Below, in pieces: positions 6,799-23,500 of a stretch of 64,000 nt of DNA. The position numbers were made by a program, and so were the translations under genes. Origin of the DNA: Longimicrobiales bacterium (GTDB taxonomy: Bacteria; Gemmatimonadota; Gemmatimonadetes; Longimicrobiales; Gaopeijiaceae). Numbering within the stretch: position 1 is the first letter of the stretch; the number at the start of each line of letters is the position of its first letter. Below the pieces are notes generated by a model that had not been told where the DNA came from, made no database searches, and saw nothing but the letters and a program-made list of their open reading frames with translations. The stretch covers positions 224,001-288,000 of the forward strand of contig CBDAON010000004.1 in assembly GCA_965198065.1 (NCBI GenBank). Direction: 5' to 3'.

Positions 6799-7353
6799 AT
6801 GACGATTAAGAGTGACCGATGGATCCGGCGGATGGCCGAGGAGCACGGCATGATCGAGCCGTTCGAGCCAGGCCAAGTGCGGAAGGGGACGATATCATAC
6901 GGCCTCTCCTCCTACGGATACGACATCCGAGTCGCTCCTGAGTTCAAGGTCTTCACGAACGTCCACAGCGTTGTCGTGGATCCGAAGGTCTTCGACGAGC
7001 GGTCCTTCGTAGACGTGCCCGCGTCCGAGTGCATCATCCCCCCAAACTCGTTCGCGCTCGCGCGGACCGTAGAGTTCTTCCGCGTCCCCCGCGACACGCT
7101 GGTGCTCTGCGTGGGGAAGAGTACGTACGCGCGTTGCGGGATCATCGTGAACGTGACCCCACTCGAGCCGACCTGGCGGGGCTACCTCACCCTCGAGATT
7201 TCGAACACGACGCCGCTTCCCGCGAAGATCTACGCGAACGAGGGGATCGCTCAGCTCCTCTTCTTCCAGGGTGACGAGGAGCCGGAGATCGCGTACGAGG
7301 ACCGGGGGGGGAAGTACCAAGACCAGAAGGGGGTCACGCTGCCGAAGCTCTAG
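6799..7353 (+). CDS. dcd: dCTP deaminase
   Basis: [65 protein letters not shown]. Confidence 0.97.
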
Positions 7354-7387
7354 CGTGCCCTGAACCAGCGAGCTAAAGCTCCCAGCA

Positions 7388-7534
7388 TTGTACAACAACA
7401 ACTTAGGGGATTCTAGGCATCCGGCCGGATGCTAGGTAGGGCACTCCTAGGGCACAATCTTTTCACCACTGTATCCGCCCCCCGAATTCGAGGGGCGTCC
7501 GCGGCGAAAAACGCTAGGTCGCTGGATGGACACC
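7388..7534. repeat. ~147-bp direct repeat, copy 1 (att-like module)
   Basis: TTGTACAACAACAACTTAG...GCATCCGGCCGGATGC palindrome...TAGGGCAC-N3-TAGGGCAC...GGATGGACACC; near-identical to 10275-10419. Confidence 0.92.
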
Positions 7535-7746
7535 TCACCACGTAATCCTCGCCTCGTCGAACGTCTCCGATCATGGCAGCCTGCCTCCTCGTCGGGGGCG
7601 GCTTTACCCGCTAAGCTACAGGGGCGTGACGGATGACGAATCCGAGGAGTCAGCCTAGAAGGGTCAACGGAAACCCGCCCGCATGTGTCCCCGCCAGTAG
7701 CACGGCTGCCCGTCTCCGCGTTGGTTCCCCCGACTAGAGGTCCTCC

Positions 7747-10092
7747 TTGCTGCGCACTTCCGGCCTTACAGCGGCCCTCGGCATCATGGTGCTCGTGATT
7801 CAGTTTCCGACACGGCTCATCGCCCAGGACCCGCAAAGCCGCGCCGACCAGGACCAACAGGACACGACTCCGGCCGCCCCGTCAACGCCAGAACCACTGG
7901 TGCCGGCGGCCGACCGAAGCGGCTCACCACTCCCGTCCCTGCTGGCCCATCGCATGGATGGGGGCACCGAGATCACCCTGGACGGGAGAGTCGAGGAGGA
8001 CGCCTGGCAGGGCGCGATACCCATCACGGACTTCACGCAGCAGGAGCCCGTGGAAGGGGCAGGCCCCAGTCAACCCACGGAGATTCGGGTCGTCTACGAC
8101 GAGGACAACCTCTACATCGGGGCGGTCATTTACGACGATCCGGAAGGGATCCTCGCCTATCAGCGTCAGAGGGACGCGGGGCTCGGGACGGATGACCGGT
8201 TCATGTGGATCCTGGACACGTTCCATGACGGGCGGACGGGCTACTTCTTCGAGATCAACGCCGCGGGCCTCATGGGAGACGGCATCCTCGGCGGAGGCGG
8301 GGGTCTGAACAAGTCGTGGGACGGGATCTGGGAAGCGCGGACGGCCCGTCGCCCGGACGGATGGTCGGCCGAGATCCAGATCCCCTTCCGCACTCTCAAT
8401 TTCGATCCTGCCCAGGATACGTGGGGCATCAACTTCCAGCGGACGATCCGACGACGGCAGGAGGAGATTCTCTGGAGGGGCTGGCTCCGGAACCAGGGGC
8501 TGTTCAGCCCCGTGTACGCCGGAGACCTGACCGGCTTGGAGGGACTCTCCCAGGGCGTGGGGTTGGAGGCCGTACCCTCCACCATCGTGAGCTGGAAGAG
8601 GACTCCGGACGACGAGGATCCTTCGACCTTCCCCCGGGACCTCAGCCTCGATATCAACTACAGCATCACGTCGAGCCTCCGGGCTTCGCTCTCGGTAAAC
8701 ACGGACTTCGCCGAGGTGGAAGCGGACCAGCGCCAGGTCAATCTCACCCGATTTCCTCTGTTCTTCCCCGAGCGGAGGGACTTCTTCCTGGAGGGATCGG
8801 GAGTCTTCTCCTTCGCGCCGAGGAGCGGCCCCGATCCATTCTTCTCTCGGCGGATCGGGCTCAGGAACCGCCAGGAGGTGCCCATCGACTTCGGAGCCCG
8901 CATGACCGGCCAGGCGGGCATCTACGAGCTGGGCTTCTATCAGATCCGTACCGGACGGGCCACCCCGGATCCGGCGGAGGAGGGAGGGTCGCCAGTGCGA
9001 GGTCCCGTCGAGGACTTTACCGTGGCCCGTGTGAAGCGCCGGATCCTCGAGCAGTCCAGCATCGGAGCCGTTTACACGCGGCGAGCCACCGGGAAGGACG
9101 AGGAAGGATTCGCTCCACCGGACCGCCACACGGTCGGCGTGGACCTGGAGCTCGCTACACGGAGCTTCCTCGGGCAAAACAACGCCGAGATGGAGGCGTT
9201 CCTCCTGTGGAACTCGGACCCCGAGCGGGGCACGGACCGCTCCTTCAACGACCTTTCCGCCCGGGGTTTCCGGCTGAACTTCCCGAACGATATCTGGTCC
9301 GGCCATCTCTCGTACCGGGAATTCGGCGACCACTACAATCCAGAGGTGGGATTCGTGACCCGCAACGACTTCCGCCGGGTCGAGCCCAACATTGGATGGT
9401 CACCGCGACCGGAGAGCGTCCCCTGGCTACGGCGGCTCAACTTCGAGGTCCAGTTCCGCTACCTGACGGAGCTGGGCACGGAGATTCTGGAGGAGCGAGA
9501 GTGGTCGCTCGGGGTCCTGGGGCTGGATTTCGAGAGCGGCGACAACGTGAATATCGGCGTTACCAACACGTACGAATACCTGGACCGACCCTTCGAGATC
9601 TCGGATGGAATCGACATCGGCGCGGGCGGCTATTCCACGTGGAATTACGGAATCCAGGCAGGCACGACGGGAAGGCGGACGGTTTCCGTCCGCGGCTCCC
9701 TCGACCTCGGGGACTTCTGGAACGGTGAGCGGACACGGGTCCAGGGGCGCGTCACGGTGCGGCCCGGGCCCGGCGTCAGCCTGTCTACGGACGTCGAGCA
9801 CAATGACGTGACGCTCCCTCAGGGAAGTTTCGAGGCGAGCGTTTACGGTGTGGACGCCGAGTGGACCCCCTCGCCCTGGGTCAGCGCCATCGGTGAGCTG
9901 CAGTACGACGACCAGAGCAAGATCGTTGGTCTCTACTCCCGACTCCGATGGATCGTAAGTCCCGGAAACGAGGTGTTCCTCGTGTATACACACAACTGGG
10001 AGAATTACGGGACCGGGCTCCTGGAGGGACGGGATCTCGCGACCCGCTCCCAAGGCGCATCCCTCAAGGCGAACTATACGTATCGCTTCTGA
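7747..10092 (+). CDS. Secreted/outer-membrane CBM9-like plus DUF5916-type protein
   Basis: Signal peptide; LDG.VEEDAW, WDGIWEART, WSAEIQIPFRTLNF, NTDFAEVEAD...NLTRFPLFFPERRDFFLEG; ends in YTYRF. Confidence 0.8.
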   Translation: MLRTSGLTAALGIMVLVIQFPTRLIAQDPQSRADQDQQDTTPAAPSTPEPLVPAADRSGSPLPSLLAHRMDGGTEITLDGRVEEDAWQGAIPITDFTQQEPVEGAGPSQPTEIRVVYDEDNLYIGAVIYDDPEGILAYQRQRDAGLGTDDRFMWILDTFHDGRTGYFFEINAAGLMGDGILGGGGGLNKSWDGIWEARTARRPDGWSAEIQIPFRTLNFDPAQDTWGINFQRTIRRRQEEILWRGWLRNQGLFSPVYAGDLTGLEGLSQGVGLEAVPSTIVSWKRTPDDEDPSTFPRDLSLDINYSITSSLRASLSVNTDFAEVEADQRQVNLTRFPLFFPERRDFFLEGSGVFSFAPRSGPDPFFSRRIGLRNRQEVPIDFGARMTGQAGIYELGFYQIRTGRATPDPAEEGGSPVRGPVEDFTVARVKRRILEQSSIGAVYTRRATGKDEEGFAPPDRHTVGVDLELATRSFLGQNNAEMEAFLLWNSDPERGTDRSFNDLSARGFRLNFPNDIWSGHLSYREFGDHYNPEVGFVTRNDFRRVEPNIGWSPRPESVPWLRRLNFEVQFRYLTELGTEILEEREWSLGVLGLDFESGDNVNIGVTNTYEYLDRPFEISDGIDIGAGGYSTWNYGIQAGTTGRRTVSVRGSLDLGDFWNGERTRVQGRVTVRPGPGVSLSTDVEHNDVTLPQGSFEASVYGVDAEWTPSPWVSAIGELQYDDQSKIVGLYSRLRWIVSPGNEVFLVYTHNWENYGTGLLEGRDLATRSQGASLKANYTYRF

Positions 10093-10274
10093 ACTGCCGG
10101 GGGTGCGTCAAGCATACTACTGCCCTTGTCGGTATTCGCTGACGATTGATGCCCTTACCGCCTTCTCGGGTGAGTCCACCGGGCCGAAAATCGCACTTCC
10201 AAGATTGACCTCTCGGTGGGCTGTCGCTAGTCTCACTCCAGGTGCTTTGAGCCAGCGGGGCCAAGCGTACGGCT

Positions 10275-10419
10275 TTGTACAACAACAACTTAGTGGATTC
10301 TAGGCATCCGGCCGGATGCTGGGTAGGGCACTCCTAGGGCACAATCTTTTGACTACTGTATCCGCCCCCGAATCGAGGGGCGTCCGCGCCGAAAAACGCT
10401 AGGTCGCTGGATGGACACC
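10275..10419. repeat. ~145-bp direct repeat, copy 2
   Basis: Near-identical to 7388-7534 with a few substitutions and indels. Confidence 0.92.
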
Positions 10420-10468
10420 GCGCTAAGGGAATCTCTGGAGAGGTAAAGCGCGTCGATGACCGCTTGAG

Positions 10469-10885
10469 TCACCGTACGAAATCAGGCGACCCGACGCTCA
10501 CCCTGAAGTCTACCCCGCGCGTTAGCGTGTTCACCATGATGCAGCCGTTCTCCGCGATTCTCACGAGGCGCTCAAAGAGGTCGCTGTCGGCGCAGTCGCC
10601 GGTTACCTCCAGGGAGACGGAAGTGAATCGTGAGGGGCTATCGGCGAGAGTTCCCGTCACGAGGGTCTCTACGTCCGAAACGTCGGCCTCGCGCGCCCTG
10701 ATCGCTGCGAGCATGGTGCTCATGAAGCAACCTGCGACCGCTGCCAAGAAATACTCGCCGCCCATGGGACCTTCGTCGGCGCCGCCTTTGGCCTCGGGCC
10801 GGTCGACGAGCACTTTGTGCTCTCGAATGGTCGCCTCGCTCGTCGACGGGCCAACCTGACGGACTCGGACCTTCATCTCTGCCAC
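10469..10885 (-). CDS. OsmC/Ohr-family protein
   Basis: VDRPEAKGGADEGPMGGEYFLAAVAGC...GCIMVNTL two-cysteine pattern. Confidence 0.85.
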   Translation of the reverse strand: MAEMKVRVRQVGPSTSEATIREHKVLVDRPEAKGGADEGPMGGEYFLAAVAGCFMSTMLAAIRAREADVSDVETLVTGTLADSPSRFTSVSLEVTGDCADSDLFERLVRIAENGCIMVNTLTRGVDFRVSVGSPDFVR

Positions 10886-10988
10886 GGTCCGCTCATTCTC
10901 CGGGCGGCATCAAATCGAGTCGCAACGCGCTCCAGCCGCACGTCCGCTCCCGCCTGACGGAGCCGCTCGGCCATCCAGGTCGTGGAGC

Positions 10989-11052
10989 GCGTCCGCGGCG
11001 GAAAACGCTAGGTGGCCGGATGGACACCTCACCACGTAACCCCCGCCTCTTC
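10989..11052. repeat. Partial third copy of the repeat's right part, including the TPR gene 3' end
   Basis: GCGTCCGCGGCGGAAAACGCTAGGTGGCCGGATGGACACCTCACCACGTAA matches 7495-7545. Confidence 0.8.
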
Positions 11053-14000
11053 GAGTAACGCCTGGTATCTGGGGTCGTCGCGGAGGAGGTCCGGATGGTT
11101 CGAGCGTGCGTCGGCAACGGCCGCGCGTCCGTATAATCCCGCTCGAACGATCTCTTCGAACAGCGCGAGGGCGCGCTCAGATTGCCCGGTCTCAGTGGAC
11201 ATCCAAAACGAACCCCCGGAGACCGTTGGCGGCTGACCAGTTTGGTGGTAGCGTATCGCCGCTTCATACGCGTCTCTCCCGGCTTGAACGTCAACATTGG
11301 CGATTTCCAGATACCTACCAAATGCTTCCAGCCCCTCCTCGTATTCGCCGACCTCCAACAGCGCCTTAGATAGCTCAAACCAGCCATTTTGCCACTCTGG
11401 GGCCAAGGCTATGGTTTCGTAGTGTTGTTCGATCGCCTCGTCAATACGCCCAGCTACCGACAAGGCCCAACCCAGAACCATAGAATGCGCCTGGGAGACC
11501 GGATCGAGTTCAAAAGCCCGCTCTGCATGAATTACTGCCTCGATCGCGCTTCCAGTGCTGTAAGAGTGACCAGCGTACCATTGGTGCGCTTGGGCATATC
11601 CTGGGTTCAGATCGATCGCCAACTCGAACTCCTGTTCAGCTCTTTCCCATTCGCCAAGGTTCTGCAACCCGTAGGCCAGAGAAGCGCGAGCCATGCCGAG
11701 GGAGGGGTCCAGTTCCACGGCTCTGCGGGCTGCGATGAGTCCCTGGTCAACATTCGGCCGCTCATCTTGGCGGGTATCGGTCAAATCGTATAAGCTCACC
11801 AAGAAATAGGGGTCCGCGAGCCCGGAGTACGCTTCTGCGTACTCCGAATCCAGCTCTATCGCAAGCTCGAACTCGGTGATCGCATCGCGAAGTCTCTGCA
11901 CGGTGCGTTGGCTAAAGAAAAACCGGAGTGAGTCCCATCTTTAGTTGAAATTGAAGCGGCCTCCAACCTCAGGTAACGTGGGTGTGCGACCACACCACGG
12001 GATCACAAGAGAGGAAGGAGGGCCACCGATGGGAAGGATGCCAAGGCTCGTCGAGCGGGGGCAAGAAGGACCGGCGGCTCGGGGAACCGAGGGAGGTGAG
12101 TTGGGAGGAGATCGAGGCGCTGGAGCTGGACCCTCGGGTGGAGCTGATCCGGCAGCTGATTCCGCTGGGACTGGCGGAGGTGGGCCGGATGCTCGAGGAG
12201 GAAGTGGAGCAACTGGCGGGGCAACGTCACGCCAGGAAGACCGAGGACGATCGACATTGCCGGCATGGGCATAACCCAGGGTCGGTGCGGTTGGGCGGCC
12301 AGCGGCATCCGGTGCGAGTACCGCGGGTGCGAGGCCCGGCCGGAGAGTCGAGGCTGGCGGCGTATGAGCAGCTGCATGGCTCGCCCGGCGAGATGGACGA
12401 GGGGCTGTTTCGGAAGGTGCTGCTCGGGATCTCGTGCCGGGACTACGAGGCAGCGGTCGAGGCGGTGCCTGGAGCCATCGGGCTGTCGAAGTCGACGGTC
12501 TCGCGGGAGTTCAAGAAGGCCACGGCCGCGAAGCTGAAGGAGTTTCAGGAGCGGGACCTCTCGGGTTACGACGTGGGGTGGCACTCGTCCTGGACGGCAA
12601 GAGCTTTGCCGAGGACGAGATGGTCGTCGCGCTCGGGGTGACGACCAAGGGGGACAAGGTCTTCCTCGGGTTCGTCCAGACCGACACGGAGAACGCCGTG
12701 GTGATCCGATCCTTCCTTCGGAGTCTGAAGGACCGAGGTCTCGACCTGTCGGCCGGAGCGCTCGTGGTGATCGATGGAGCCCGCGGTCTCCGGAGCGGCG
12801 TCCTGGCGGTCTTCAAGGGACAGGTGCTCATCCAGCGGTGCCAGTGGCACAAGCGGAAGAACGTGATCTCGTATCTGCCGAGAGCGGAGCAGAAGGGCTG
12901 GCGCCAGCGTCTGCAGCGCGCCTACCAGCGGCCCACGTACGAAGAGGCCGTCAAGGACCTCAAGGCCCTGCGCCAGGAGCTCGCGGGGGTGAACCAGTCC
13001 GCGGCGGCCAGTCTCGATGAGGGGTTCGAGGAGACCCTCACCCTCCACCGGTTGGGAGTCTTCCCCCTGGTCGGCCAGTCGCTCAAGACCACCAACGTGC
13101 TCGAGTCCGTGAACGCCCTGGCCGAGCAGAGGTGCGGACGCGTGGACCACTGGAAGAACTCGAGCCAGAAGCACCGATGGCTCGCGACCACGCTCCTGGA
13201 GATCTAGTCACGGCTCCGGAGGTTGCTCGGGTACCGACACCTCCCGCTCCTCAGGGCCGCGATCCAGAAGGACCTCGGGATCACCCTTCCCGAGAGCCGT
13301 TCACATGCTGTCGCCTGAGACGGAGGCCGCTCCAGTTTCAACTAACTTTGGGATTGACTCAAAAAACGGCCTCGCTGATACGCCTGGAACGCCTCAGGAA
13401 CGGTGGTCCCCTGTGCCACGAGCGGCGTCTCTGCCCCTCCGGCCAGCGCGACCTGAAGTTCGTCCGTAACTGCGCGGGCTAATGCGTCCTGAATCGCGAA
13501 GATGTTCGAAGCTGGGCCGTCGATTGCCTCCGACCACAGAACAGCCCCAGTTGCAGCCTCTACAAGCCGAGGCCGGACACGAACCGTCTCACCCACCTGC
13601 TGAAGGTCGCATTCCAGCACTGTCGCAACATCCAACGTCTCCGCGATTTCCTCGATGTCGGCGTTCAACTCAAGCGCGATGACTGAGGTAATGCCAATGA
13701 CCTTGAGGCCGGGCAGCTGCGTCAGGCCACCAATGATCCCTTCGGCGAAACCTTGAGTGAGAGGGGTCTGATCTCCTGGCGCGCTCGCATCGGTGCATGG
13801 CATCACCGCGACCGACGGCTCAATGGACGCGGGAGCCTCAGCGGTCGTGGATCCCGTTCCATCGCCGAACATGACCCAGCCCACCCCTACGCCGATCAAC
13901 ACGAAGAAAGCCCCGACTCCCCCCAGGGTGGCTTTCTTCCACGTAAAGAGACGGGACGGGACCGTGGACTCCACTTGATCCCCCGTTTCCTGTGCCGGGG

Positions 14001-14265
14001 CTGTGCTCTTGGCGCGTTGGGCCTCGTGTCCCGGACCGCCTTCCTGCACGAACGCGGTCGCGAGCACGATCGGGAGCCCAACGATTAGCAGACCCAGCGC
14101 AAGCGTAGGGAACCACTCCGGTAGTGCCGTGGTGTCAGTTAGCTCCCCTGCCACCTGCAGCACGACCCAACTAGCCACAGCATAGATCCCCAGCACCTGC
14201 CAGAGACTACGGCGGTGGATCTCGCCGATGAAACGCTTGAGAGGATTGTCGGAGGGGTCAGCCAT
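11029..14265 (-). pseudogene. Membrane-anchored TolB-N/FlgO-like plus TPR protein, split by IS copy 1
   Basis: N-part 14265-13361 (EIHRRSLWQVLGIY...SVAVMP...AFQAYQRGRF) and C-part 11925-11029 (RFFFSQRTVQRLRDAI...LEEAGVTW) rejoin in frame across the IS. Confidence 0.85.
11926..13360 (+). mobile_element. IS256-family insertion sequence, copy 1 (transposase 12029-13318 interrupted)
   Basis: 39-bp imperfect terminal IRs (32/39); DDE-type segments LVLDG, VVIDG, IQRCQWHK, TTNVLES; 8-bp target duplication AAAAACCG/AAAAAACG. Confidence 0.92.
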
Positions 14266-14321
14266 ACGTCCCGCCGGTTAACGGCCTTTGAGGGCTCTGC
14301 TCAGTCGGGTGGTAGGGTCGG

Positions 14322-15912
14322 TCACTGATCCGGCACCACCTGCCTCAACTCCTCGAAGAAGTTCTGGACCAGGATAAGGCGCTGTGGCTCGGCAGCGCCC
14401 TCCTCGGCGCAACCTCCGAAGGGACGCACCATTAAGAACCGCTCGCCGTCTGAGCTGACATCGTAGAAATAGTTGCTCGGGCCGACCGGGTATCCAATTG
14501 GGATGGTGAACAGCATCTCTGGGGTCCGGGCCTGACCCGATGCAGGATCGAACCGGGCGGACAGCAGCCTACGCTCATCATCCACGAAGAACAACTCGTC
14601 GCCACTCTTCGCCCAAAGCGGCTCGAATCCCCCGTCGGTCGAGACACGCACTCTGGTCGAGTCCACGTTGGGAAACGGACGAATGAACACTTCGTCACGA
14701 CCTGTCTCGTTCGAGCTATACGCGAGCCAGCGACCGTCTGGAGACAGGGCCGGTCCCTGCTCCGCAAACTCGGCTGAGGCGACCAGGGATACTGCGGAGC
14801 TGTCCACCCCGGGACAGAAGCCGAGAATGTCTCGCAGGCCCAGACCCTCCGATGCTGTCGCGGCGCTGCGGAACACCAACCACTCGCCATCAGAACTCCA
14901 CGATCCCTGGGTGACGCCACGTTCGTCATCGAGTATGAGCACCGCGTCTCCAGTCCCGTCCGCACGCCTGGACCAAATGTTCGACGCCGAGAAGTACGTT
15001 ACGCTTTGCCCATCGGGCATCCAGAATGGCCTGACGTCCGGGTCCTCCGAGAAGGTGATTCTCTCTTCCGGGCCATCGGGCAACTGCTTGATACGAACAT
15101 CAATGTTCCCATCGACTATGCTATTGAAGACGATCTTCGTTTCATCCGGGGACAGCCTCCATCCGTAGTTGCCTACTGTAGGGGCAAACGCGTACCCCGG
15201 ATCGACGGGCGTAGCCTGGCCGGAGCGAGTGACCCATACGAACTCGTTCAATGACGCTGAGGCGGACCCTTCCACGTAGAGGAGCGTCCCGTCGGAACCA
15301 AGGACCATGTCTGCCATACCTGAGTTGCCGAGATTTGCCGTTCTAACACCCTCGAGGAGTGGGACTGAGGAGCCCGCAAGCTGCAACGCAGTGATGTCGA
15401 AAGGTTGGGCCAAGACAGCGCCGTCGGCGCGGACGTAGACGATGTGTCCGGTGGGGACGTACCAAGCTCGTGCGACTCCTGAGAAGAGGACTTCTGATGA
15501 TAGATCCTCCAGATCCACGATGTGGAGCTGGTTGGTATCAAGCGTACAGCCCACTCCTGGGCAAGCGACAACAAGTGCCCCTCGTGCGCCTGGGAGACCG
15601 TGAACCCAAGTGATCGACACCTCTTGCTCGCTAGCCCCAAAGACCACGTTGAGCGGCGCTCCTCCGTCTTCTGAGATCCGCGCAATCCGACGGGTGGACA
15701 CACCCTCCCCAGTACCAAACTGCTCATAGAGAATCGTACCGTCGTCGAGCCAAGAGAGACCTACGAGGCCAGCCGTGCTCGGTGCGTCCTCCGCGATCCT
15801 GATGGGAGAGCCCCCAACGAGTGGACGCTTGAAGAGTTCTGTTCCGATCGAATAGGCGATCCAGTCACCGTCGGGCGAGTACACGACGTCCCTGGCCCCC
15901 TCCGTTCCCTGG
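14322..15912 (-). pseudogene. TolB-like PD40 beta-propeller (probable C-terminus of a kinase-propeller protein), 5'-truncated by IS copy 2
   Basis: YSPDGDWIAY, LSPDETKI, WSSDGEWL, LSPDGRWLAYSSNETGRDEVF, LVQNFFEELR; ORF start lies inside the IS. Confidence 0.8.
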
Positions 15913-17346
15913 GAGTCAATCCCAAAGTTAGTTGAAACTGGAGCGGCCTCCGTCTCAGGCGACAGCATGTGAACGGCTCTCGGGAAGGGTGATCCCGAGG
16001 TCCTTCTGGATCGCGGCCCTGAGGAGCGGGAGGTGTCGGTACCCGAGCAACCTCCGGAGCCGTGACTAGATCTCCAGGAGCGTGGTCGCGAGCCATCGGT
16101 GCTTCTGGCTCGAGTTCTTCCAGTGGTCCACGCGTCCGCACCTCTGCTCGGCCAGGGCGTTCACGGACTCGAGCACGTTGGTGGTCTTGAGCGACTGGCC
16201 GACCAGGGGGAAGACTCCCAACCGGTGGAGGGTGAGGGTCTCCTCGAACCCCTCATCGAGACTGGCCGCCGCGGACTGGTTCACCCCCGCGAGCTCCTGG
16301 CGCAGGGCCTTGAGGTCCTTGACGGCCTCTTCGTACGTGGGCCGCTGGTAGGCGCGCTGCAGACGCTGGCGCCAGCCCTTCTGCTCCGCTCTCGGCAGAT
16401 ACGAGATCACGTTCTCCCGCTTGTGCCACTGGCACCGCTGGATGAGCACCTGTCCCTTGAAGACCGCCAGGACGCCGCTCCGGAGACCGCGGGCTCCATC
16501 GATCACCACGAGCGCTCCGGCCGACAGGTCGAGACCTCGGTCCTTCAGACTCCGAAGGAAGGATCGGATCACCACGGCGTTCTCCGTGTCGGTCTGGACG
16601 AACCCGAGGAAGACCTTGTCCCCCTTGGTCGTCACCCCGAGCGCGACGACCATCTCGTCCTCGGCAAAGCTCTTGCCGTCCAGGACGAGTGCCACCCCAC
16701 GTCGTAACCCGAGAGGTCCCGCTCCTGAAACTCCTTCAGCTTCGCGGCCGTGGCCTTCTTGAACTCCCGCGAGACCGTCGACTTCGACAGCCCGATGGCT
16801 CCAGGCACCGCCTCGACCGCTGCCTCGTAGTCCCGGCACGAGATCCCGAGCAGCACCTTCCGAAACAGCCCCTCGTCCATCTCGCCGGGCGAGCCATGCA
16901 GCTGCTCATACGCCGCCAGCCTCGACTCTCCGGCCGGGCCTCGCACCCGCGGTACTCGCACCGGATGCCGCTGGCCGCCCAACCGCACCGACCCTGGGTT
17001 ATGCCCATGCCGGCAATGTCGATCGTCCTCGGTCTTCCTGGCGTGACGTTGCCCCGCCAGTTGCTCCACTTCCTCCTCGAGCATCCGGCCCACCTCCGCC
17101 AGTCCCAGCGGAATCAGCTGCCGGATCAGCTCCACCCGAGGGTCCAGCTCCAGCGCCTCGATCTCCTCCCAACTCACCTCCCTCGGTTCCCCGAGCCGCC
17201 GGTCCTTCTTGCCCCCGCTCGACGAGCCTTGGCATCCTTCCCATCGGTGGCCTCCTTCCTCTCTTGTGATCCCGTGGTGTGGTCGCACACCCACGTTACC
17301 TGAGGTTGGAGGCCGCTTCAATTTCAACTAAAGATGGGACTCACTC
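15913..17346 (-). mobile_element. IS256-family insertion sequence, copy 2
   Basis: Reverse complement of copies 1 and 3 with the same IRs; no target duplication (TTCCCTGG vs TGGTTGGG). Confidence 0.92.
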
Positions 17347-17842
17347 TGGTTGGGGCCTCGTCAAAGCGTTCGCTCCGCCTTTCGGCCTGCCGGTAGTAGT
17401 TCACGAGGTCCCTCCGAAGCTCAACATCTTCGATAAGGGTCAACCGGCCTGAACTGACCAGCTCGTCAAACGTCGCCTACGTGAGAGGCACATTCCGCAT
17501 CAAGGCCGCGAACGCGACCGCATTCAGGACCGCCATCGTATCGATGGACTGTCCTCTAGGAGCGTCGAGAAACGCGAGAACCTTGTGCGCCGCATCCATC
17601 ATCTCGCGACTCTCGGACAGGATCGTTCGGAGGGCCCGCCCGTTCGCTTCAAAGTCCTGAGCTAGGCGCTCGAGATAAAGTGCCTCAAGGCGCTGTTCTT
17701 CATTGCCTTGTCGCCAGCCCTCGGCCCAAAGGGCGGCTGATACGCCGAGCATGATCACCAGCAACTCTCCAGCCAAACGGAGTCCGAGTGAGGCCCACGC
17801 CCTGGTTCGCCCCGGCATGGACTTAGCGCCCCCGTCCGACAT
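17347..17842 (-). pseudogene. Integron cassette 2 gene (N-terminal TM plus coiled coil, DUF6090-like), in-frame TAG and IS-truncated
   Basis: GELLVIMLGVSAALWAEGWRQ..YLERLAQDF; frame continues past TAG 17479-17477 as ATFDELVSSGRLTLIEDVELRRDLVNYY up to the IS end. Confidence 0.65.
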
Positions 17843-17898
17843 GCCTGTCCCCCTTCGCCTCGTTGCTCAGCCTTCGATCCGAACGATCATGAGATGCC

Positions 17899-17960
17899 GT
17901 CTAACGTCTCGCCGCTCAGCTGCCGCGCACAGCGCGGGCAGCTGCAGCGGCTTGTTAGCT
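17899..17960 (-). mobile_element. Integron attC site
   Basis: Minus strand AGCTAAC-AAGCCGCTGCAGCTGCCCGCGCTGTGCGCGGCAGCTGAGCGGCGAGAC-GTTAGAC: R''/R' boxes, long imperfect hairpin with unpaired bases; upstream gene TAA lies in R''. Confidence 0.88.
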
Positions 17961-18296
17961 GTCGTCGCCCCGCGAGTCGTCTAGCGCGACGTCGTATAGC
18001 GGTTGGACGTCCACTCGATCCCCGAGGCACTCGCCCATGACCTCTTTGTGCTCCTCATCGATCGCGTGCGTCGACCGAGCGAATGCCTCTCTCCCGCGGT
18101 CGAAGTCGGCCGCCTCCATCGCGTACACGAGGATGGGCCCGTCGACCGTCTGGAGAACGAACGCTTGCTCGTGGCTAATCGTCTCCTCAACGAACGTTGC
18201 CCGGACTTCGTCGGCCCGCGTCGAAAGTTCAGCTAGCCATGCTCGCAACCGGGCCTCTTTGCTCGGCTTTATTCGTCGCAAACTCACGCGCAGCAT
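17955..18296 (-). CDS. Integron cassette 1 gene, small DUF6176-like protein
   Basis: MLRVSLRRIKPSKEARLRAWLAEL..RADEVRATF..E.AFVL..DGPILVYAMEA..S.HAIDEEHK; RBS-like GGGAGAG upstream. Confidence 0.7.
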   Translation of the reverse strand: MLRVSLRRIKPSKEARLRAWLAELSTRADEVRATFVEETISHEQAFVLQTVDGPILVYAMEAADFDRGREAFARSTHAIDEEHKEVMGECLGDRVDVQPLYDVALDDSRGDDS

Positions 18297-18332
18297 GTGC
18301 TTGCTCTCCCTGTTCCGCGCCAGCTTTCGTAC

Positions 18333-18365
18333 AGCTAACAAGAAATCGACTGAACTGCGTAATAG
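18333..18365 (-). mobile_element. Putative attI site
   Basis: Minus strand CTATTACGCAGTTCAGTCGATTTCTT-GTTAGCT; the GTTAGCT core is exactly complementary to R'' (AGCTAAC) of the attC closing cassette 1; no attC hairpin upstream of it. Confidence 0.65.
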
Positions 18366-18546
18366 GGGCAACGCTGCAGATGCCCGCAACGTTTTGACCG
18401 CGCCGGACGTTGCTTCGCCCGTCGCAACTTCTGGGCCGGCAGGTACTTTCCGCCGGCACGCACGCCGTCGCACGTCCGATTATGCCGTGGGGAGAGGCAG
18501 CCTATCACCGTGTGTTCGCGTCGGGCATGGCCGGTCTTCGTGACGC

Positions 18547-18729
18547 TCAGAGTAGGATTCGGTCCGCGGGGCTGCGGACGGCACTGGGTCCACGGTTCAG
18601 GACGTGCGTATAGATCATGGTGGTGCTCACGTCGCGGTGGCCGAGCAATTCCTGGACGGTGCGAATGTCGTGGCCATCCTCGAGTAGATGGGTCGCGAAG
18701 GAGTGACGGAACGTGTGACAGCTCGCCCG
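18547..18729 (-). pseudogene. intI: Integron integrase C-terminal remnant
   Basis: [56 protein letters not shown]; tyrosine recombinase box II with the IntI-typical tail; N-terminal part absent. Confidence 0.88.
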
Positions 18730-18776
18730 ATGATCTGGGTGCTGGAGTGCTCGACCTACGGGGTGGTCGATTACCC

Positions 18777-19163
18777 TCACGCCATCAACCTGCTGGCGAG
18801 CACGGGCACCCACGCCTTCTTGATCTTGTGGATCACAGCCGAATCGGCCTGGGGTAACGCACCTTCGGTCGCGTCCCATAGCTCGTCGATGAGGTCCTGG
18901 TCGTAGGGCTCTTTGGGTAGCCCGAACTTGGCCGCGATGTCGATGGCTTTGAGTTGGTCTGCTGGCCTGGCTTCCTTCCTGCCGGTCGCGAACTCCTCAA
19001 GATGCGGTAGGCCCTTCTCTAGGATGTCGCGCATCGAGCCGCGGAGTTCGTTCGGGGGACGGCCTGGACGAGCATGGTTGCCGCCCTGTTTCAGCGCCCC
19101 ACCGTGCTTCTGCTTGACGAGCTTGTCCCCGGACTTGCTCCCGGACTTCCCATTGTCTCTCAC
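18777..19163 (-). CDS. Hypothetical protein resembling a phage terminase small subunit
   Basis: Basic N-terminus with [10 protein letters not shown] motif followed by helical segments. Confidence 0.4.
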
Positions 19164-19239
19164 GCTACCGAAGATGCTGCAGCAATCGCTTGTTAGGCCG
19201 CGCGGCGCCCGCTAAGGGTACGGTGTTCTGGGTCACGAC

Positions 19240-19296
19240 GTGCCCTACCTGTGCCCTAGACATGCGGGCACCGCTGGATAGTCGTTGTGCCACAAC
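19240..19296 (+). repeat. att-like module, inverted relative to those at 7388 and 10275
   Basis: GTGCCCTA-N3-GTGCCCTA (19240, 19251) followed by TAGTCGTTGTGCCACAAC; same order as the reverse complement of 7388-7455. Confidence 0.6.
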
Positions 19297-19303
19297 GGTT
19301 ATT

Positions 19304-19337
19304 GCTCATAGAGCGTCTGCTTCCGTAGCAGGTGGCC
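19304..19337 (+). pseudogene. Possible tRNA-Arg(CCG)-like remnant (partial D arm plus anticodon arm)
   Basis: GCTCA-TAGAGC-G-TCTGC-TTCCGTA-GCAGG-TGGCC; no acceptor stem or T arm. Confidence 0.35.
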
Positions 19338-19533
19338 GGTCGCCAGATCCCGCTTCCGGGTCGGTGGCGGTCGGCTCGGGGGCGCCTCTGTGGTAGCACG
19401 GATCAGGTAACGAGGAATCGGGGTGGCACCGGGCCGCGAGTCTTCCCATGTTGCCCCGGCCCGGTCTTGAAGCTGGCGCGTTAGTCTTCGCCCCGTCGCC
19501 GCTACCCACCTGCCCCCGGGCCCGGAGGAAGCA

Positions 19534-19975
19534 ATGGCGCGCCCAAGGCTACTTCGTGTTCCACTTGCCCTCGTGCTCGTCTCCTCGGCTACCGTTGCCT
19601 GCGCCGATGCCGGTACCGGAACCCAGGACGGCAGCATCACCGGGACGTACTCGTTGGTCATGGTCAACGGCTCCCCGCTGCCCGGCGTCGTGTACGAGGA
19701 GCCGGGGTACACAGAGGAGGTACTCGAGGGCTCCCCTCACGTTGCTCTCCGACAACACCTACCTGTCCCGATTCGTGTGGCGAGAGACCGAGGGCGGTGC
19801 TACGAGCACCGAAGAAGAAGTCGATGAGGGGACCTATGTCGTGTCCGGTAGTCAGATCACGTTCATAGACACGGAGGACCCGGACGATCCCATCCAGGGG
19901 GTGATCAGCGGGAACACGATTACGGTGACCTTCGAGGAGGACAGGGACCCGCAGGTCTGGGTCTTCGAGAAGTAG
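19534..19975 (+). CDS. Lipocalin-like lipoprotein with one frameshift (~19735)
   Basis: Lipobox TVAC, ITGTYSLVMVNGSPLP (19534 frame) continuing as LTLLSDNTY...DEGTYVVSGSQITF...VFEK (19448 frame); shift at a C4 run. Confidence 0.65.
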
Positions 19976-20527
19976 GGGCCCGATCTTCACGACTCCCCCT
20001 CGTTCTGGATGGCCCAGCGTTCGACCCGCGGCTCATTCTGAGTCACGGCCACCTCGTGCGCGTTCTCCAGTACGGCTATCGGCGTGGTCATGGGTCTGTA
20101 CTCGCTGGTTTCGGCGGCGCGATTTTTTCGCTTTGCTTGGTGGGGGGGCTCGTACCGTTCGACGCCACCTCCACGGCAGCGGCTTCCACTTCAACAGCAC
20201 ACGCCAACGACGGGTCACACCCACCGCTCTTTTTTTCTTCGTCCTCCCCCCTGGTAAAACCCCTCCCCTCGTGGCTCATTTTGAGTCGTGGACTCATTTT
20301 GGGTCGCGGCTTGTTTTTCGCGGCCAGGATGCGCGAGCGCCGTTCAAACGCCTCCAGTCTCGTGACGGCCCGGTGTAACCAGCGGCCGTCTTGTCCGTCC
20401 TCTTCGGCGATCCTGGCGAGACCAGAGCGGCGGGCTCCCGTAGTTGGACACCGTTTTGTGCCATCGCGGCGTGCGAGCTGTGGTTCGGTTAAGCCAGGTA
20501 CAACTCAAGAGAGGTGAGATACCAACG

Positions 20528-21943
20528 ATGAAGGCAACCGCGATTGATGGACGCGAGATCGAACTTGACCAAGACGCACTCGACGCGTTGAGGCTGCGAC
20601 TCCGGGGGCCGGTGGCATTGCCTGGTGACGGCAGTTACGAGGAATCGCGCACGGTGTGGAACGAAATGATCGGCCGCAGGCCCGCCGTGGTAGTGCGGTG
20701 CCTCGGGGTTGCGGATGTGATCGCATGTGTGCAGTTCACGCGCGAACGGGATCGTTGCTCTGCATCAAGGGCGGAGGCCACAACATCGCAGGCCTAGCCA
20801 CGGCCGATGGTGCGCTGATGTTGGATATGTCGCTCATGCGCAGCGTGTGGGTGGACCCGAAGGGGCGAGTAGCTCATGCCCAGGCGGGCTGTCTGCTCGG
20901 CGACGTAGATCGCGAAACGCAGGTGCACGGACTTGCTGCGGTTCTCGGGTTCGTATCACTCACAGGCATCACAGGCCTCACGATGGGTGGCGGATTCGGC
21001 TACCTGACGAGGCGGTGGGGTTGGACGTCCGATAACGTAGTTGGCATGAACCTGGTGACGGCTGACGCGACGGTGGTGCGTGCGAGCAGTGAAGAGAACG
21101 CCGACCTCTTTTGGGGGCTGCGAGGTGGTGGCGGGAACTTCGGTGTTGTCACCGGCATCGACTACGCGCTTCACTCGGTCGGTCCAGAGGTCGTTGGAGG
21201 CGTGGTAGCCTGGCCCGCAAGTGAGGCTCCCGCCGTTCTGGAGCTTTACCGGACTCTCGCCAAGCAGGCTCCGGCCGAGCTCACCCTCGTCGCTTTGATC
21301 CGACCGGCACCGCCAGCGCCGTGGCTCCCGAAGGAAACTCACGGAAAACCGATCGTGGCTGTGTTGGCCTGCCACAGCGGGAGCATCGCGGACGGAGAGA
21401 ACGCCGTTGCTCCCATTAAGTCGTTCGGCAAACCGATCGGTGATGTGCTGGTCCGCCGGCCATACCTGCAGATGCAGTCGTTGTTAGATGCGACGCAACC
21501 CAAGGGACGGCGCTATTACTGGAAGAGCGAGTACCTTTCGCGCATTGAGCCGGAACTGTGCGGAAAGCTCGCGGAGCATGCTGCGAGAATCCGATCCCCG
21601 CACTCCGCCGTCATTCTGTTTCAGCTCGACGGCGCTCTGAACCAGTTTGGGAGCGATCACTACCCAGTTGGAAACCGGGACGCCCGCTACGTGGCTCAAC
21701 ATCGCAGGGTCGTGGGAGCACGCTGGCGAGGATGAGGCCAACATCCAGTGGGCGCGCGACGCATGGAACGACATGAGAGTGTTCTCCACTGGCGGCACCT
21801 ACATCAACTTCTTGACGGAAGACGAGGGTCCTGAGCGAACCCAGGCCGCGCTCGGCGGGGCAATCCAACGGCTTGCCGAGGTCAAGGCAAAGTGGGATCC
21901 AGAAAACGTGTTTCGCACGAACCGAAACATCAGGCCAGTGTGA
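20528..21943 (+). pseudogene. FAD-binding (BBE-like) oxidoreductase with two frameshifts (~20750, ~21695)
   Basis: YEESRTVWNEMIGRRPA / GGGHNIAG..DLFWGLRGGGGNFGVVT / YINF..RLAEVKAKWDPENVFRTNRNI across three frames. Confidence 0.85.
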
Positions 21944-22022
21944 GGGACTGCAGATCGTGCGACGATCATGAGCTCGCGTACACCGGGAAGAGGTCTAACC
22001 AAGCAAGGCGCACGGAGGTGGT

Positions 22023-22427
22023 ATGAAGGAACCTTTTCCGCCAAGCGAATCGGAGGTTACCCAGCTTCTTGTTGTTAGCGACCCCAAACGGTCGAAGACC
22101 TTTTATATAGACGTATTGGGGGCCGAACTGTACCGGGAGTACGGAGGTGACTCGTTAGTCCTTCGGTTCCTCGGCATGTGGCTTCTTCTGGTGAGCGGGG
22201 GTCCTCCGACTGAGGACAAGCCTGGAGTGACGTTCGCCCCGCCTGCGGACGGAAATCGGGTTGATCATCAACTGACGATCCGAGTGCCCGATTGCCGTGC
22301 CGCGTACGCTGCACTGAAATCCAAAGGAGCGCCGTTCCTCACACCTCCCTTTGATCGTGGAGGTGAGGTCCGATGTTTCTTCCGGGATCCAGACGGTCAC
22401 TTGTTGGAGATCAGTGAAGTGACCTAG
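22023..22427 (+). CDS. VOC/glyoxalase-family protein
   Basis: LVVSDPKRSKTFYIDVLG...CFFRDPDGHLLEI; GGAGG RBS. Confidence 0.88.
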   Translation: MKEPFPPSESEVTQLLVVSDPKRSKTFYIDVLGAELYREYGGDSLVLRFLGMWLLLVSGGPPTEDKPGVTFAPPADGNRVDHQLTIRVPDCRAAYAALKSKGAPFLTPPFDRGGEVRCFFRDPDGHLLEISEVT

Positions 22428-22496
22428 GACGGAGCGATACTTGGACGAAGACGACTAGCACATCATGGATGTTCGTGTGAAGCGGGCCCCGGGGCC

Positions 22497-23420
22497 TCAG
22501 CCCAGGGTCGCGATCGTGGAGCGGACCGCGACCGCGCTTCTCTCCAGCTCCGAGCGCTCTTCAGCCGTCAGCTCGACCTCGACGATCTGCTCGAGCCCGC
22601 CCGCCCCGAGCTTGCAGGGTACGCCGAAGAAGATTCCGCTCTGGCCGTACTCGCCCTCGAGGTACGCTGCACAGGGCAGGATCCGCTTCTTGTCCTTCGC
22701 GATCGCTTCGGCCATCTGAACGGCGGCGGACGAAGGCGCGTAGTACGCGCTCCCGGTCTTCAGGAAGGCGACGATCTCGGCCCCGCCGCCGCGCGTGCGA
22801 TCGATCAGGGCCTCGATTCTGTCCTCCGACAGCAGCTGTCGGATCGGGATGCCGCTGATGGTCGTGTAGCTCACCAGGGGCACCATCGTGTCCCCGTGCC
22901 CCCCGAGAACCAGAGCCTGGATGTCTTCGACGCTTACCCCGAGCTCCGCCGCGATGAAGGTCCGATAGCGCGCTGTGTCGAGGACGCCGGCCATCCCGAT
23001 CACCCGCTCACGGGGAAAGCCCGTCGTCTTCATCGCCACGTAGGCCATCGCGTCGAGCGGATTCGACACCATGATGATGATTGAATCGGGCGCCACCCGT
23101 GCGATCTGCTCCGAGACGGACCGGACGATCTCAGCGTTCGTCTTGAGGAGGTCGTCCCGACTCATCCCCGGCTTCCGCGCAATCCCGGCCGTCATGATGA
23201 AGAGGTCCGAGCCCTCGGCGGCTCCGTATTCCGTAGCCCCCACGATGCGCGTGTCGAATCCCTCGACCGGCCCGCTCTGCCACTGATCGAGCGCTTTCCC
23301 CTGGGGAACGCCGTCCACCACATCGATGAGGACGACCTCACGGGCCAGCTCCGCCTCGGCCAGGCGCTGCGCACAGGTGGCGCCGACGTGCCCCGCGCCC
23401 ACGACGGTTATCTTCCTCAT
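22497..23420 (-). CDS. mdh: Malate dehydrogenase
   Basis: [43 protein letters not shown]. Confidence 0.96.
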
Positions 23421-23471
23421 CCGCTCCTTTCGTCCTCTTGAAAGAGGCCCGTCCCTGGAAAAGTCCGCCGC

Positions 23472-23500
23472 AAGCTACCGGGGGCCCCTAGAGGTGTCAA
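23472..23500 (-). promoter_or_regulatory. Putative sigma70-type promoter of mdh
   Basis: TTGACA - N17 - TAGCTT on the minus strand. Confidence 0.55.

What the first reader, a model, noticed from the sequence alone, without database searches (positions are those of the whole stretch)
7355..19337. Three att-like modules (paired octamer, IHF-like tract, tRNA-like remnant) bracketing the accessory region
Seen: the same ordered architecture occurs at 7455-7355 (minus), ~10342-10227 (minus) and 19240-19337 (plus). Each has GTGCCCTA twice at an 11-bp period, a spacer (palindrome GCATCCGGCCGGATGC in two copies), a TA(A)GT(T/C)GTTGT...ACAA tract, and then tRNA-like sequence: GGAGCTT-TAGCTCGCTGGTTCAGGGCAC, a more decayed equivalent, and an Arg(CCG)-like anticodon arm. 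Known: lambda-type tyrosine integrases use tandem arm sites plus IHF sites and often target tRNA genes. Inference: these are stacked ends of a tRNA-targeting integrative element family, or a small non-autonomous element, stranded at a locus without an intact tRNA. The outer two are inverted around ~12 kb of cargo that includes the integron. No cognate integrase is in the window.
Basis: partly seen in the sequence, partly recalled or inferred. Interest (0 to 1): 0.7.

Follow-up and report, generated by a model that had tools for sequence, protein, structure and literature searches.

The report
Orphan integrase docking-site scars
The three modules match the right-hand attachment ends of a family of mobile DNA islands that, in related bacteria, sit just in front of certain tRNA genes, and here they were likely left by insertions at look-alike non-tRNA sites; this is a known kind of scar, with one unexplained oddity, a tRNA-derived stretch that varies far more than its flanks.

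Summary
The modules are real. A fourth copy in the same assembly sits directly 5' of an intact tRNA-Arg(CCT). In relatives the same octamer pair marks both ends of 5-18 kb islands on the 5' side of tRNA genes: a tRNA 5' fragment, a pair, then a P4/IntSXT-type integrase at one end; a pair then the rebuilt tRNA at the other. The targets (Pro-TGG, Arg-CCT, Ala-TGC, Val-TAC) share the anticodon stem CTGC-N7-GCAG. All three window modules have the right-end (attR) layout, an in-phase core-like dyad, and tRNA-like parts best matching Val(TAC) (two) and Arg (one). They are not the paired ends of one 12-kb element, and the cognate integrase was not found in the assembly. Best reading: attR scars of insertions at secondary sites; M1's site is the last codons of dcd. 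Younger orphans of the same kind occur in relatives. Unexplained: the Val-like 30 bp differ much more than their flanks, both between M1 and M2 and between strains. Known kind of feature, apparently undescribed integrase clade.

The parts
7437..7455 (-). M1 arm-type pair, GTGCCCTA x2 at an 11-bp period (arm function inferred)
   Evidence: same motif at both ends of complete islands in relatives
7388..7432 (-). M1 spacer with the 16-bp palindrome (7417-7432) and the TAAGTTGTTG tract (7388-7405), a putative DNA-bending-protein site
   Evidence: a profile of relatives' arm+spacer+tract alone hits it at E 1e-6
7354..7383 (-). M1 degenerate 5' half of tRNA-Val(TAC)
   Evidence: best of 48 tRNAs; 9 of 1000 shuffles
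7339..7353 (-). M1 core-like dyad, 6 of 8 match to CTGC-N7-GCAG, 83 bp from the pair; it is the last codons and stop of dcd (inferred secondary attB)
6802..7353 (+). dcd (dCTP deaminase), intact host gene at the left border
   Evidence: PF22769
7355..7560 (-). M1 repeat unit; its upstream end holds the last codons of a TPR-family gene and a hairpin
7747..10092 (+). DUF5916/CBM9-like gene lying between the M1 and M2 repeats
10324..10342 (-). M2 arm-type pair
10275..10319 (-). M2 palindrome (10304-10319) and tract (10275-10292)
   Evidence: E 7e-7
10239..10274 (-). M2 degenerate tRNA-Val(TAC) 5' half with 4-bp leader; the segment that differs between strains
   Evidence: 26 of 1000 shuffles
10227..10241 (-). 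M2 core-like dyad, 5 of 8 (weak), 82 bp from the pair
19240..19258 (+). M3 arm-type pair; homology with a diverged copy in related strains starts here
19279..19296 (+). M3 tract
19300..19337 (+). M3 shortened tRNA-Arg-like remnant with a perfect core dyad (19317-19331, 8 of 8) 58 bp from the pair

Best explanation
The three modules have the layout of the right-hand junction (attR) of islands that carry a P4/IntSXT-type tyrosine integrase in related genomes, and they were likely left when such elements inserted at non-tRNA secondary sites and then lost their other end. Shown by comparison: these islands lie on the 5' side of tRNA genes; the left end is a tRNA 5' fragment ending at the anticodon loop, then a co-oriented pair 130-134 bp further, then the integrase; the right end is a pair, a tract and the rebuilt tRNA. 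Inferred mechanism: the integrase's N-terminal domain binds the octamer pairs, a host bending protein binds the tract, and the core-binding domains grip the anticodon stem (CTGC-N7-GCAG) with the 7-nt loop as the strand-exchange region. The element carries a replacement 5' half of the tRNA. Insertion at a chromosomal look-alike of the stem (for M1, the end of dcd) would leave pair + tract + tRNA 5' half + foreign loop + host DNA, which is what M1-M3 show. The stranded half, no longer part of a tRNA, then decayed. M1 and M2 come from a Val(TAC)-type element (two sibling insertions, or one plus a duplication); M3 comes from an Arg-type element.
For: (1) Fourth copy at C4:164387 abuts intact tRNA-Arg(CCT). 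(2) 14 of 15 exact-pair hits in other family genomes lie beside a tRNA gene or fragment, as do 5 of 6 further hits. (3) A 56-64%-identical integrase clade (PF13356+PF22022+PF00589) occurs at 17 loci in 16 of 314 genomes; 14 of 17 have a tRNA 5' fragment just upstream, one of them Val(TAC), and a 15th has a reversed Val(TAC) 3' fragment. (4) Five complete 5'-side islands of 4.7-18.1 kb (L056, L057, L106, L108, L112). (5) Exactly 4 of 48 tRNAs of this assembly have CTGC-N7-GCAG, and they are Pro-TGG, Arg-CCT, Ala-TGC and Val-TAC. (6) Pair-to-core distances in 17 attR sites are phased at about 11 bp (p 0.003, kin not independent); M1 83, M2 82 and M3 58 are in phase. (7) A profile built only from relatives' arm+spacer+tract ranks M4, M2, M1, M3 as its top four hits in the assembly. 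(8) Younger orphans cut off in the anticodon loop with no second pair or integrase in the DNA fetched: L015/L061, L116, L120, and L118, a Val(TAC) one differing by 1 base from its host's intact tRNA. (9) The dcd end scores 7 of 8 on the dyad in 4 of 26 uninterrupted relatives, against 0.07% of positions genome-wide.
Against: No binding or recombination was tested. No empty site from a close strain was seen, so no crossover point is mapped. No matching attL was found in the accessory region (no further arm match 7000-23500). M2's dyad (5 of 8) is reached at 4.7% of positions by chance, and M1's is one base out of register with the Val half. M1's left half-site includes dcd's native-type stop, so it may be host DNA rather than element DNA. 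Rfam finds no tRNA signal. Plain neutral decay does not explain why the tRNA half differs at 12 of 33 positions between M1 and M2 while the 147 bp upstream differ at 7 (Fisher p 5e-6), nor the cluster of strain differences in M2.
Confidence: 0.62

Rival explanations
1. Same integrase family and same attR identity, but the ends arose at real tRNA genes (or as middle junctions of tandem arrays) and were later moved here and truncated by IS-driven rearrangement.
For: The assembly has about 20 BLAST hits to one IS256-type element, three in the window, and 34 rows of tRNA fragments, many far from their parent genes. Window 10410-10985 is 98% identical to C4:2444326-2444901, about 260 bp from a near-perfect Val(TAC) 5' fragment. 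M3's alignment to tRNA-Arg runs on weakly into the T arm.
Against: 0 of 3 modules have the co-oriented pair expected 130-134 bp past the loop in a tandem junction. All three loops differ from tRNA loops while a stem-like dyad is kept in register. M1's right side is the intact, in-frame end of a conserved host gene, with no IS at the junction.
Confidence: 0.18
2. The modules are still-functional att sites of a sub-lineage that has stopped rebuilding tRNAs: arms, spacing and core dyad are kept by selection while the vestigial tRNA half drifts or is actively diversified, and an integrase acting in trans would use them.
For: M3 and an unrelated metagenome orphan (L077) both have a perfect dyad exactly 58 bp from the pair, two helical turns shorter than the 80-85 class, with the tract at the same offset. 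A 91%-identical M3-like copy in runs X18-X20 starts at the arm pair, shows no listed change in arms or core, and its listed indels between them net to zero. Strain differences in M2 fall only on the element side of the core.
Against: No cognate integrase in the assembly (88% complete). No partner attL. The M1 and M2 dyads are degenerate and the three loops differ, which by the usual homology rule blocks recombination among them. Unchanged arms and core at 9% divergence has a chance of about 0.05, and 49 rows were not shown. L077 is a single 1.3-kb contig.
Confidence: 0.14
3. One reading: M1 and M3 are the inverted ends of one ~12-kb element, or the module is a MITE-like unit.
For: M1 is at the exact left border of the accessory region, and M1 and M3 are inverted.
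Against: Complete islands have co-oriented pairs and unlike ends (5 of 5). M1 and M3 share only the octamers and tract and derive from different tRNAs. The region extends 3 kb beyond M3. The 180-bp unit has no long homologue in 200 family genomes.
Confidence: 0.03
4. The 11-bp-period repeats are binding sites of a host transcription factor (OmpR/PhoB-type direct repeats, recalled) at tRNA or pseudo-tRNA promoters.
For: An 11-bp period fits such factors; many copies lie just upstream of tRNA genes.
Against: The pair is present in only 11 of 201 family genomes, although the Arg(CCT) arm is detected in 153 of 216. The same pair and tract also occur 3' of tRNAs (L012, L074) and between tRNA fragments and integrase starts. 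No sigma-70 consensus site at M1 or M4.
Confidence: 0.03

Closest known systems
att sites of DUF4102/Arm-DNA-bind_3 (IntSXT subgroup, P4 cluster) tyrosine integrases, e.g. KplE1 IntS (PMC8138268, PMC2951348; passages read)
   Same: Integrase domain order PF13356-PF22022-PF00589; arm pairs, core dyad and integrase promoter region inside attL; tRNA targets.
   Different: The P4 cluster is described as inserting downstream of tRNA genes; 14 of 17 loci here carry the displaced 5' fragment, so the island lies upstream. Only about 30% identical to the P4-like integrases of this assembly and far below the PRK09692 cut-off (67.8 vs 434 bits).
Doubled attP motif of HE-PICIs (PMC10111431; passages read)
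   Same: A doubled motif on each side of the crossover, co-oriented, 81+/-2 bp upstream and 132+/-2 bp downstream; here 80-106 bp (phased) and 130-134 bp.
   Different: Different motif and hosts; HE-PICIs target prophage late genes. No phage-satellite genes were tested here.
Islander tDNA islands with a 5' fragment and anticodon (A) site (PMC4383910; parts 1-2 of 3 read)
   Same: tRNA split at the anticodon loop and restored by the island; 159 of 3919 islands have a 5' fragment.
   Different: The window modules lack the tRNA, the integrase and the second end, so Islander would not call them.
Secondary-site integration by tRNA-targeting phage integrases (Fionnbharth, PMC10865867; lambda as summarised in bioRxiv 10.1101/2023.11.06.565760; passages read)
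   Same: Off-target junctions keep the dyad or a few bases at the edge of the overlap and lie in ordinary genes.
   Different: Those were selected in the laboratory at under 1e-5 frequency; here they are inferred from sequence only and seem recurrent (4 young orphans among 21 pair hits examined in other family genomes).
Tycheposon island remnants with scattered partial tRNAs (bioRxiv 10.1101/2020.12.28.424599; passages read)
   Same: Degenerate element ends and partial tRNAs accumulating in an accessory region.
   Different: Those islands stay anchored at a proximal tRNA; this region has none.

Membership tests
attR of an arm-domain tyrosine integrase island | Tandem arm-type repeats at fixed, helically phased distance from the core, co-oriented at both island ends | tested here: met
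   13 of 13 left ends at 130-134 bp; 17 right ends phased; M1-M3 in phase.
attR of an arm-domain tyrosine integrase island | Inverted core sites around a 7-bp overlap | tested here: inconclusive
   M3 8 of 8, M1 6 of 8 (1 bp out of register), M2 5 of 8.
attR of an arm-domain tyrosine integrase island | Cognate integrase with an N-terminal arm-binding domain linked to the motif | tested here: met
   In relatives. Not found in this assembly (best about 30% identity).
attR of an arm-domain tyrosine integrase island | Integrase binds the repeats and recombines the sites | not testable with these tools
   Needs binding and recombination assays.
attR of an arm-domain tyrosine integrase island | IHF site between arm and core | tested here: inconclusive
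   The reverse strand of the M1/M2 tract fits the CAA-N4-TTR part of the recalled IHF consensus but not its first three bases; M3 fits less well. The assembly has 3 HU/IHF-family matches.
Complete tDNA-integrated genomic island (Islander definition) | Intact tRNA, its displaced fragment and an integrase in between | tested here: not met
   No tRNA in the window, no cognate integrase or attL. Met by five islands in relatives.
tRNA gene or pseudo-tRNA | Cloverleaf / covariance-model match | tested here: not met
   ARAGORN 0 genes; Rfam no tRNA hit at E<=10; only 5'-half sequence similarity.
MITE / element with terminal inverted repeats | Two inverted ends of one unit with target duplication and many copies | tested here: not met
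   M1 and M3 share only octamers and tract; 2 copies of the 180-bp unit; no long homologue in relatives. Target duplications were not searched for systematically.
P4 cluster of IntSXT integrases | Phylogenetic placement in the P4 cluster | not tested
   No tree with reference integrases was built; only the domain order and sub-threshold profile hits.

The most novel reading that the evidence does not exclude
An undescribed integrase clade reads only the anticodon-stem dyad CTGC-N7-GCAG, hops among four or five tRNA types and into look-alike chromosomal sites, and these modules are live intermediates of that switch: arms, helical spacing and core are kept, while the vestigial tRNA 5' half is being erased faster than neutral, by selection against a stranded tRNA half or by error-prone repair after abortive integrase cleavage.
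Probability: 0.15. Interest if true: 0.68.

Novelty: new member of a known kind. Interest (0 to 1): 0.36.

Why it matters
As a class the feature is ordinary: leftover attachment ends of tRNA-targeting islands. The added value is a defined integrase clade with inferred arm sites, core and target rule in a little-studied phylum, using the rarer 5'-side configuration (about 4% in Islander), and a set of natural off-target junctions. That makes a question on how integrases change target directly testable, and a dyad-reading integrase with a free 7-bp overlap could be of use as an integration tool. If the excess variation in the tRNA half is confirmed in raw reads from more strains, it would point to a localized mutational or selective process at stranded att sites that my searches did not find described.

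Tried and rejected
Rfam scans and ARAGORN: no tRNA signal in the modules. Antisense (tRNA 3'-end) reading of M1/M2: scores 22-24 against 34-36 for sense Val(TAC). Module as tRNA promoter: no consensus site at M1 or M4, the same tract occurs 3' of tRNAs, and a -10-like hexamer in M1 would put the start inside the tRNA. A lost tRNA at the dcd-mdh locus: none of 29 dcd flanks has one beside the gene, apart from one doubtful ARAGORN Val(GAC) call in L033. The integrase remnant at C4:2286760 with one octamer downstream was first suspected as cognate; the relatives point to a different clade. DNA search with the 180-bp unit in 200 family genomes: only short matches, in 4 genomes. Viral contigs: no relative of the integrase; 0 of 15 pair hits had a detected tRNA or fragment within 200 bp, one (L141) shows a reversed T-arm-like string by eye. 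Right ends were not found within about 38 kb for G103, G108, G152, G185 and G112, and contigs ended for G187, G016, G097, G218 and G059. Mosaic conversion from other tRNAs as the cause of variation: loss of the conserved D-arm A is not templated by the tRNAs listed (checked by eye). Excision of the DUF5916 gene between M1 and M2: both are attR-type and their loops differ. 14 of 20 sequencing runs held under 8% of words and were not used; the X18-X20 gap at 19110-19235 is not taken as absence. Literature: no paper held with all of Gemmatimonadota / tyrosine integrase / tRNA gene / attP; searches also returned 0; one search returned only papers without Gemmatimonadota among the 15 listed. Williams 2002 and Rutkai 2006 were not available, so a prior description of this clade there or in subscription journals is not excluded. 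Supplements were not read.
Full report
Observation. The three modules (M1 7455-7339 minus, M2 10342-10227 minus, M3 19240-19337 plus) are in the sequence as described. The exact octamer pair occurs 4 times in the 3.05-Mb assembly against about 1e-4 expected. The fourth copy (M4, C4:164387, about 60 kb before the window) is followed by a tract and then an intact tRNA-Arg(CCT). M1 and M2 belong to a 180-bp direct repeat, 89% identical, that flanks a DUF5916 gene. Aligned to all 48 credible tRNAs of the assembly in both orientations (2 doubtful ARAGORN calls left out), M1 and M2 each best match the 5' half of tRNA-Val(TAC) and M3 best matches tRNA-Arg(CCT); 9, 26 and 0 of 1000 shuffles reached those scores. 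M3's loop is CCG-like; among 216 family genomes nearly all listed matches with this stem are Arg(CCT) and one is CCG, and M3 is about equally far from both. ARAGORN and Rfam see no tRNA in the modules.

Setting. The region is an insertion of about 15 kb between dcd and mdh, which are 75 bp apart in same-genus G070; other relatives have mdh or an FKBP-like gene after dcd and no tRNA. M1 abuts the dcd stop codon; M3 is 3 kb inside the other edge. The cargo is a mosaic of paralogous pieces, two IS256-type copies and an IntI remnant. The named records that carry the motif are titled Gemmatimonadetes, so the host group is probably Gemmatimonadota.

What the motif marks in relatives. The exact pair was found 19 times in 11 of 201 family genomes, with 1 hit for the reversed control. 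Of the 15 hits outside this assembly, 8 lie just 5' of an intact tRNA (5 Pro-TGG, 3 Arg-CCT), 1 precedes an Arg 5' fragment, 1 lies beside the 3' end of a reversed Lys(CTT), 4 lie between a tRNA fragment and an integrase start, and 1 has no tRNA. A wider search (314 genomes, one mismatch, 25 hits, 8 control hits) added 6 loci, 5 beside tRNA sequence. Of 5 metagenome hits, 2 precede intact tRNAs, 2 (one sequence) follow one, and 1 is an orphan.

The cognate integrase. The integrases next to the pairs carry PF13356, PF22022 and PF00589; four of the five first examined are 55-60% identical to one another and the fifth about 31%. With one as query, 17 loci in 16 of 314 genomes passed E 1e-90, none in this assembly (best hits here about 30%; completeness 88%). 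Upstream of 14 of 17 lies a tRNA 5' fragment ending at or just past the anticodon loop (Arg-CCT 5, Pro-TGG 4, Lys-CTT 3, Ala-TGC 1, Val-TAC 1); one has a reversed Val(TAC) 3' fragment; two truncated genes have none. Five islands are complete: L056, L057, L106, L108 and L112, 4.7-18.1 kb, each on the 5' side of the rebuilt tRNA with co-oriented pairs at both ends. Four of the targets share the anticodon stem CTGC-N7-GCAG, and these are the only 4 of 48 tRNAs in this assembly with that stem; Lys(CTT) has a related stem. At left ends the pair lies 130-134 bp past the loop in 13 of 13 measured. At right ends the pair lies 80-85, 94-96 or 103-106 bp before the core in 17 sites, phased at about 11 bp (p 0.003; kin are not independent). 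This matches the doubled, co-oriented motif at 81 and 132 bp described for HE-PICI attP (PMC10111431, passages), and the domain order is that of the DUF4102/IntSXT subgroup (PMC8138268, passages). Islands with a 5' fragment are known but uncommon, 159 of 3919 in Islander (PMC4383910, parts 1-2 of 3).

Back to the window. A profile built only from 12 relatives' arm+spacer+tract, with no tRNA letters and no sequence of this assembly, returned M4, M2, M1 and M3 as its top four hits (E 2e-8, 7e-7, 1e-6, 0.03). All three modules have the right-end layout. Core-like dyads lie 83, 82 and 58 bp from the pairs, in phase, scoring 6, 5 and 8 of 8; such scores occur at 0.75%, 4.7% and 0.002% of positions. 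None is followed by the left-end pair expected in a tandem junction. M1's dyad is the last codons and stop of dcd, which scores 7 of 8 in 4 of 26 uninterrupted relatives. Relatives hold younger orphans that stop in the anticodon loop: L015/L061 and L116 (Arg), L120 (Lys, dyad kept, loop foreign) and L118 (Val-TAC, 1 change from its host's intact gene). Secondary-site insertion by tRNA-targeting integrases is documented (PMC10865867 and bioRxiv 10.1101/2023.11.06.565760, passages). I therefore read M1-M3 as attR junctions (about 0.9 for that much), most likely formed at secondary sites (0.62). Arm binding, the bending-protein site, the crossover position and the loss of the left ends are inferred, not shown.

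What does not fit. M1 and M2 differ at 7 of 147 positions upstream but 12 of 33 in the tRNA-like part (Fisher p 5e-6). In a related strain, a contig spanning 8025-10304 has 16 substitutions and 1 gap, of which 6 and the gap fall in 10246-10274; a run from another study shows 5 of the same changes among 20 events. Binomial p is 9e-10 and 2e-6 against a uniform spread, and 2e-4 and 2e-3 at an assumed 3% neutral rate. That strain's version is closer to tRNA-Val. These are contigs, two samples, at depths of 11 and 3, with many table rows not shown; runs X15 and X17 match the window and may be the source strain. M3 has a 91%-identical copy in runs X18-X20 whose similarity starts at the arm pair, with no listed change in arms or core; it is probably a paralogue. 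An unrelated metagenome orphan, L077, has the same 58-bp spacing and a perfect dyad. The young orphans show no such excess. Selection against a stranded tRNA half, error-prone repair after abortive cleavage, and short conversions from unseen paralogues all remain open. An earlier unchecked note in this scan (e1-760222) mentions local hypermutation beside a tRNA fragment, but with a one-strand cytosine pattern that I do not see here.

Verdict. Observation confirmed; the att reading is supported and traced to a definite integrase clade; the 'two ends of one element' reading is not supported. It is a new member of a known kind. I found no paper on this clade in the searches, but two key papers were unavailable and no supplements were read. 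Interest 0.36; the bolder reading (live, tRNA-independent sites with an actively eroded tRNA half) has a probability of about 0.15.

Noticed in passing
window 18547-18879 (-), and about 17950, 18330, 19190: Only the C-terminal ~60 residues of an integron integrase (TIGR02249, E 3e-30, below cut-off) remain, directly behind a small unrelated ORF; three attC-like ends lie nearby.
   Followed up: partly
window 11921-13360 (+) and 15912-17346 (-): Two inverted copies of a 1435-bp IS256-type element with the transposase split in two frames; the first interrupts a TPR-family gene (14265 to 11029). About 20 hits in the assembly.
   Followed up: partly
G000:C4:2707500-2813270, 678133, 19004: A second family of ends with GTGCCGTA x2 at an 11-bp period, followed about 135 bp later by 3' fragments of tRNA-Cys or tRNA-Leu(TAA), far from the parent tRNAs.
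   Followed up: partly
G000 whole assembly: 34 PF00589 matches and 34 rows of tRNA fragments, including near-perfect 5' fragments of Ala(TGC) x3, Val(TAC) x2 and Gln(TTG) that are followed by other arm motifs, so several 5'-side families are present.
   Followed up: partly
G000:C4:163440-164458: About 1 kb between divergent tRNA-Arg(TCG) and tRNA-Arg(CCT) holds M4, a piece of the Cys-family end and one 141-aa ORF, probably a collapsed island.
   Followed up: partly
G000:C4:2712114-2712290 and C3:57400-57510: Degenerate or unusual tRNA-like sequences: an odd second Gly(TCC) followed by another tRNA-like stretch, and a long-variable-arm tRNA-like sequence missed by ARAGORN.
   Followed up: no
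L048 / G070:C59:18171-19706: In the same-genus genome dcd is split by an insertion of about 960 bp.
   Followed up: no
L082-L087, L106: A sub-branch of the integrase clade uses a different arm motif (GTGGACCCCA x2) with the same geometry and overlapping targets, Lys(CTT), Pro(TGG), Val(TAC).
   Followed up: partly
L057:10338-10356, L060:104-122, L056 upstream of attR: Extra inverted octamer pairs inside islands, not followed by tRNA-like sequence; role unknown.
   Followed up: no
window about 19520-19975 (+): A small lipoprotein-like gene downstream of M3 with a 79%-identical paralogue at C4:1871606-1872194 that lacks the module; homology begins near 19393.
   Followed up: partly
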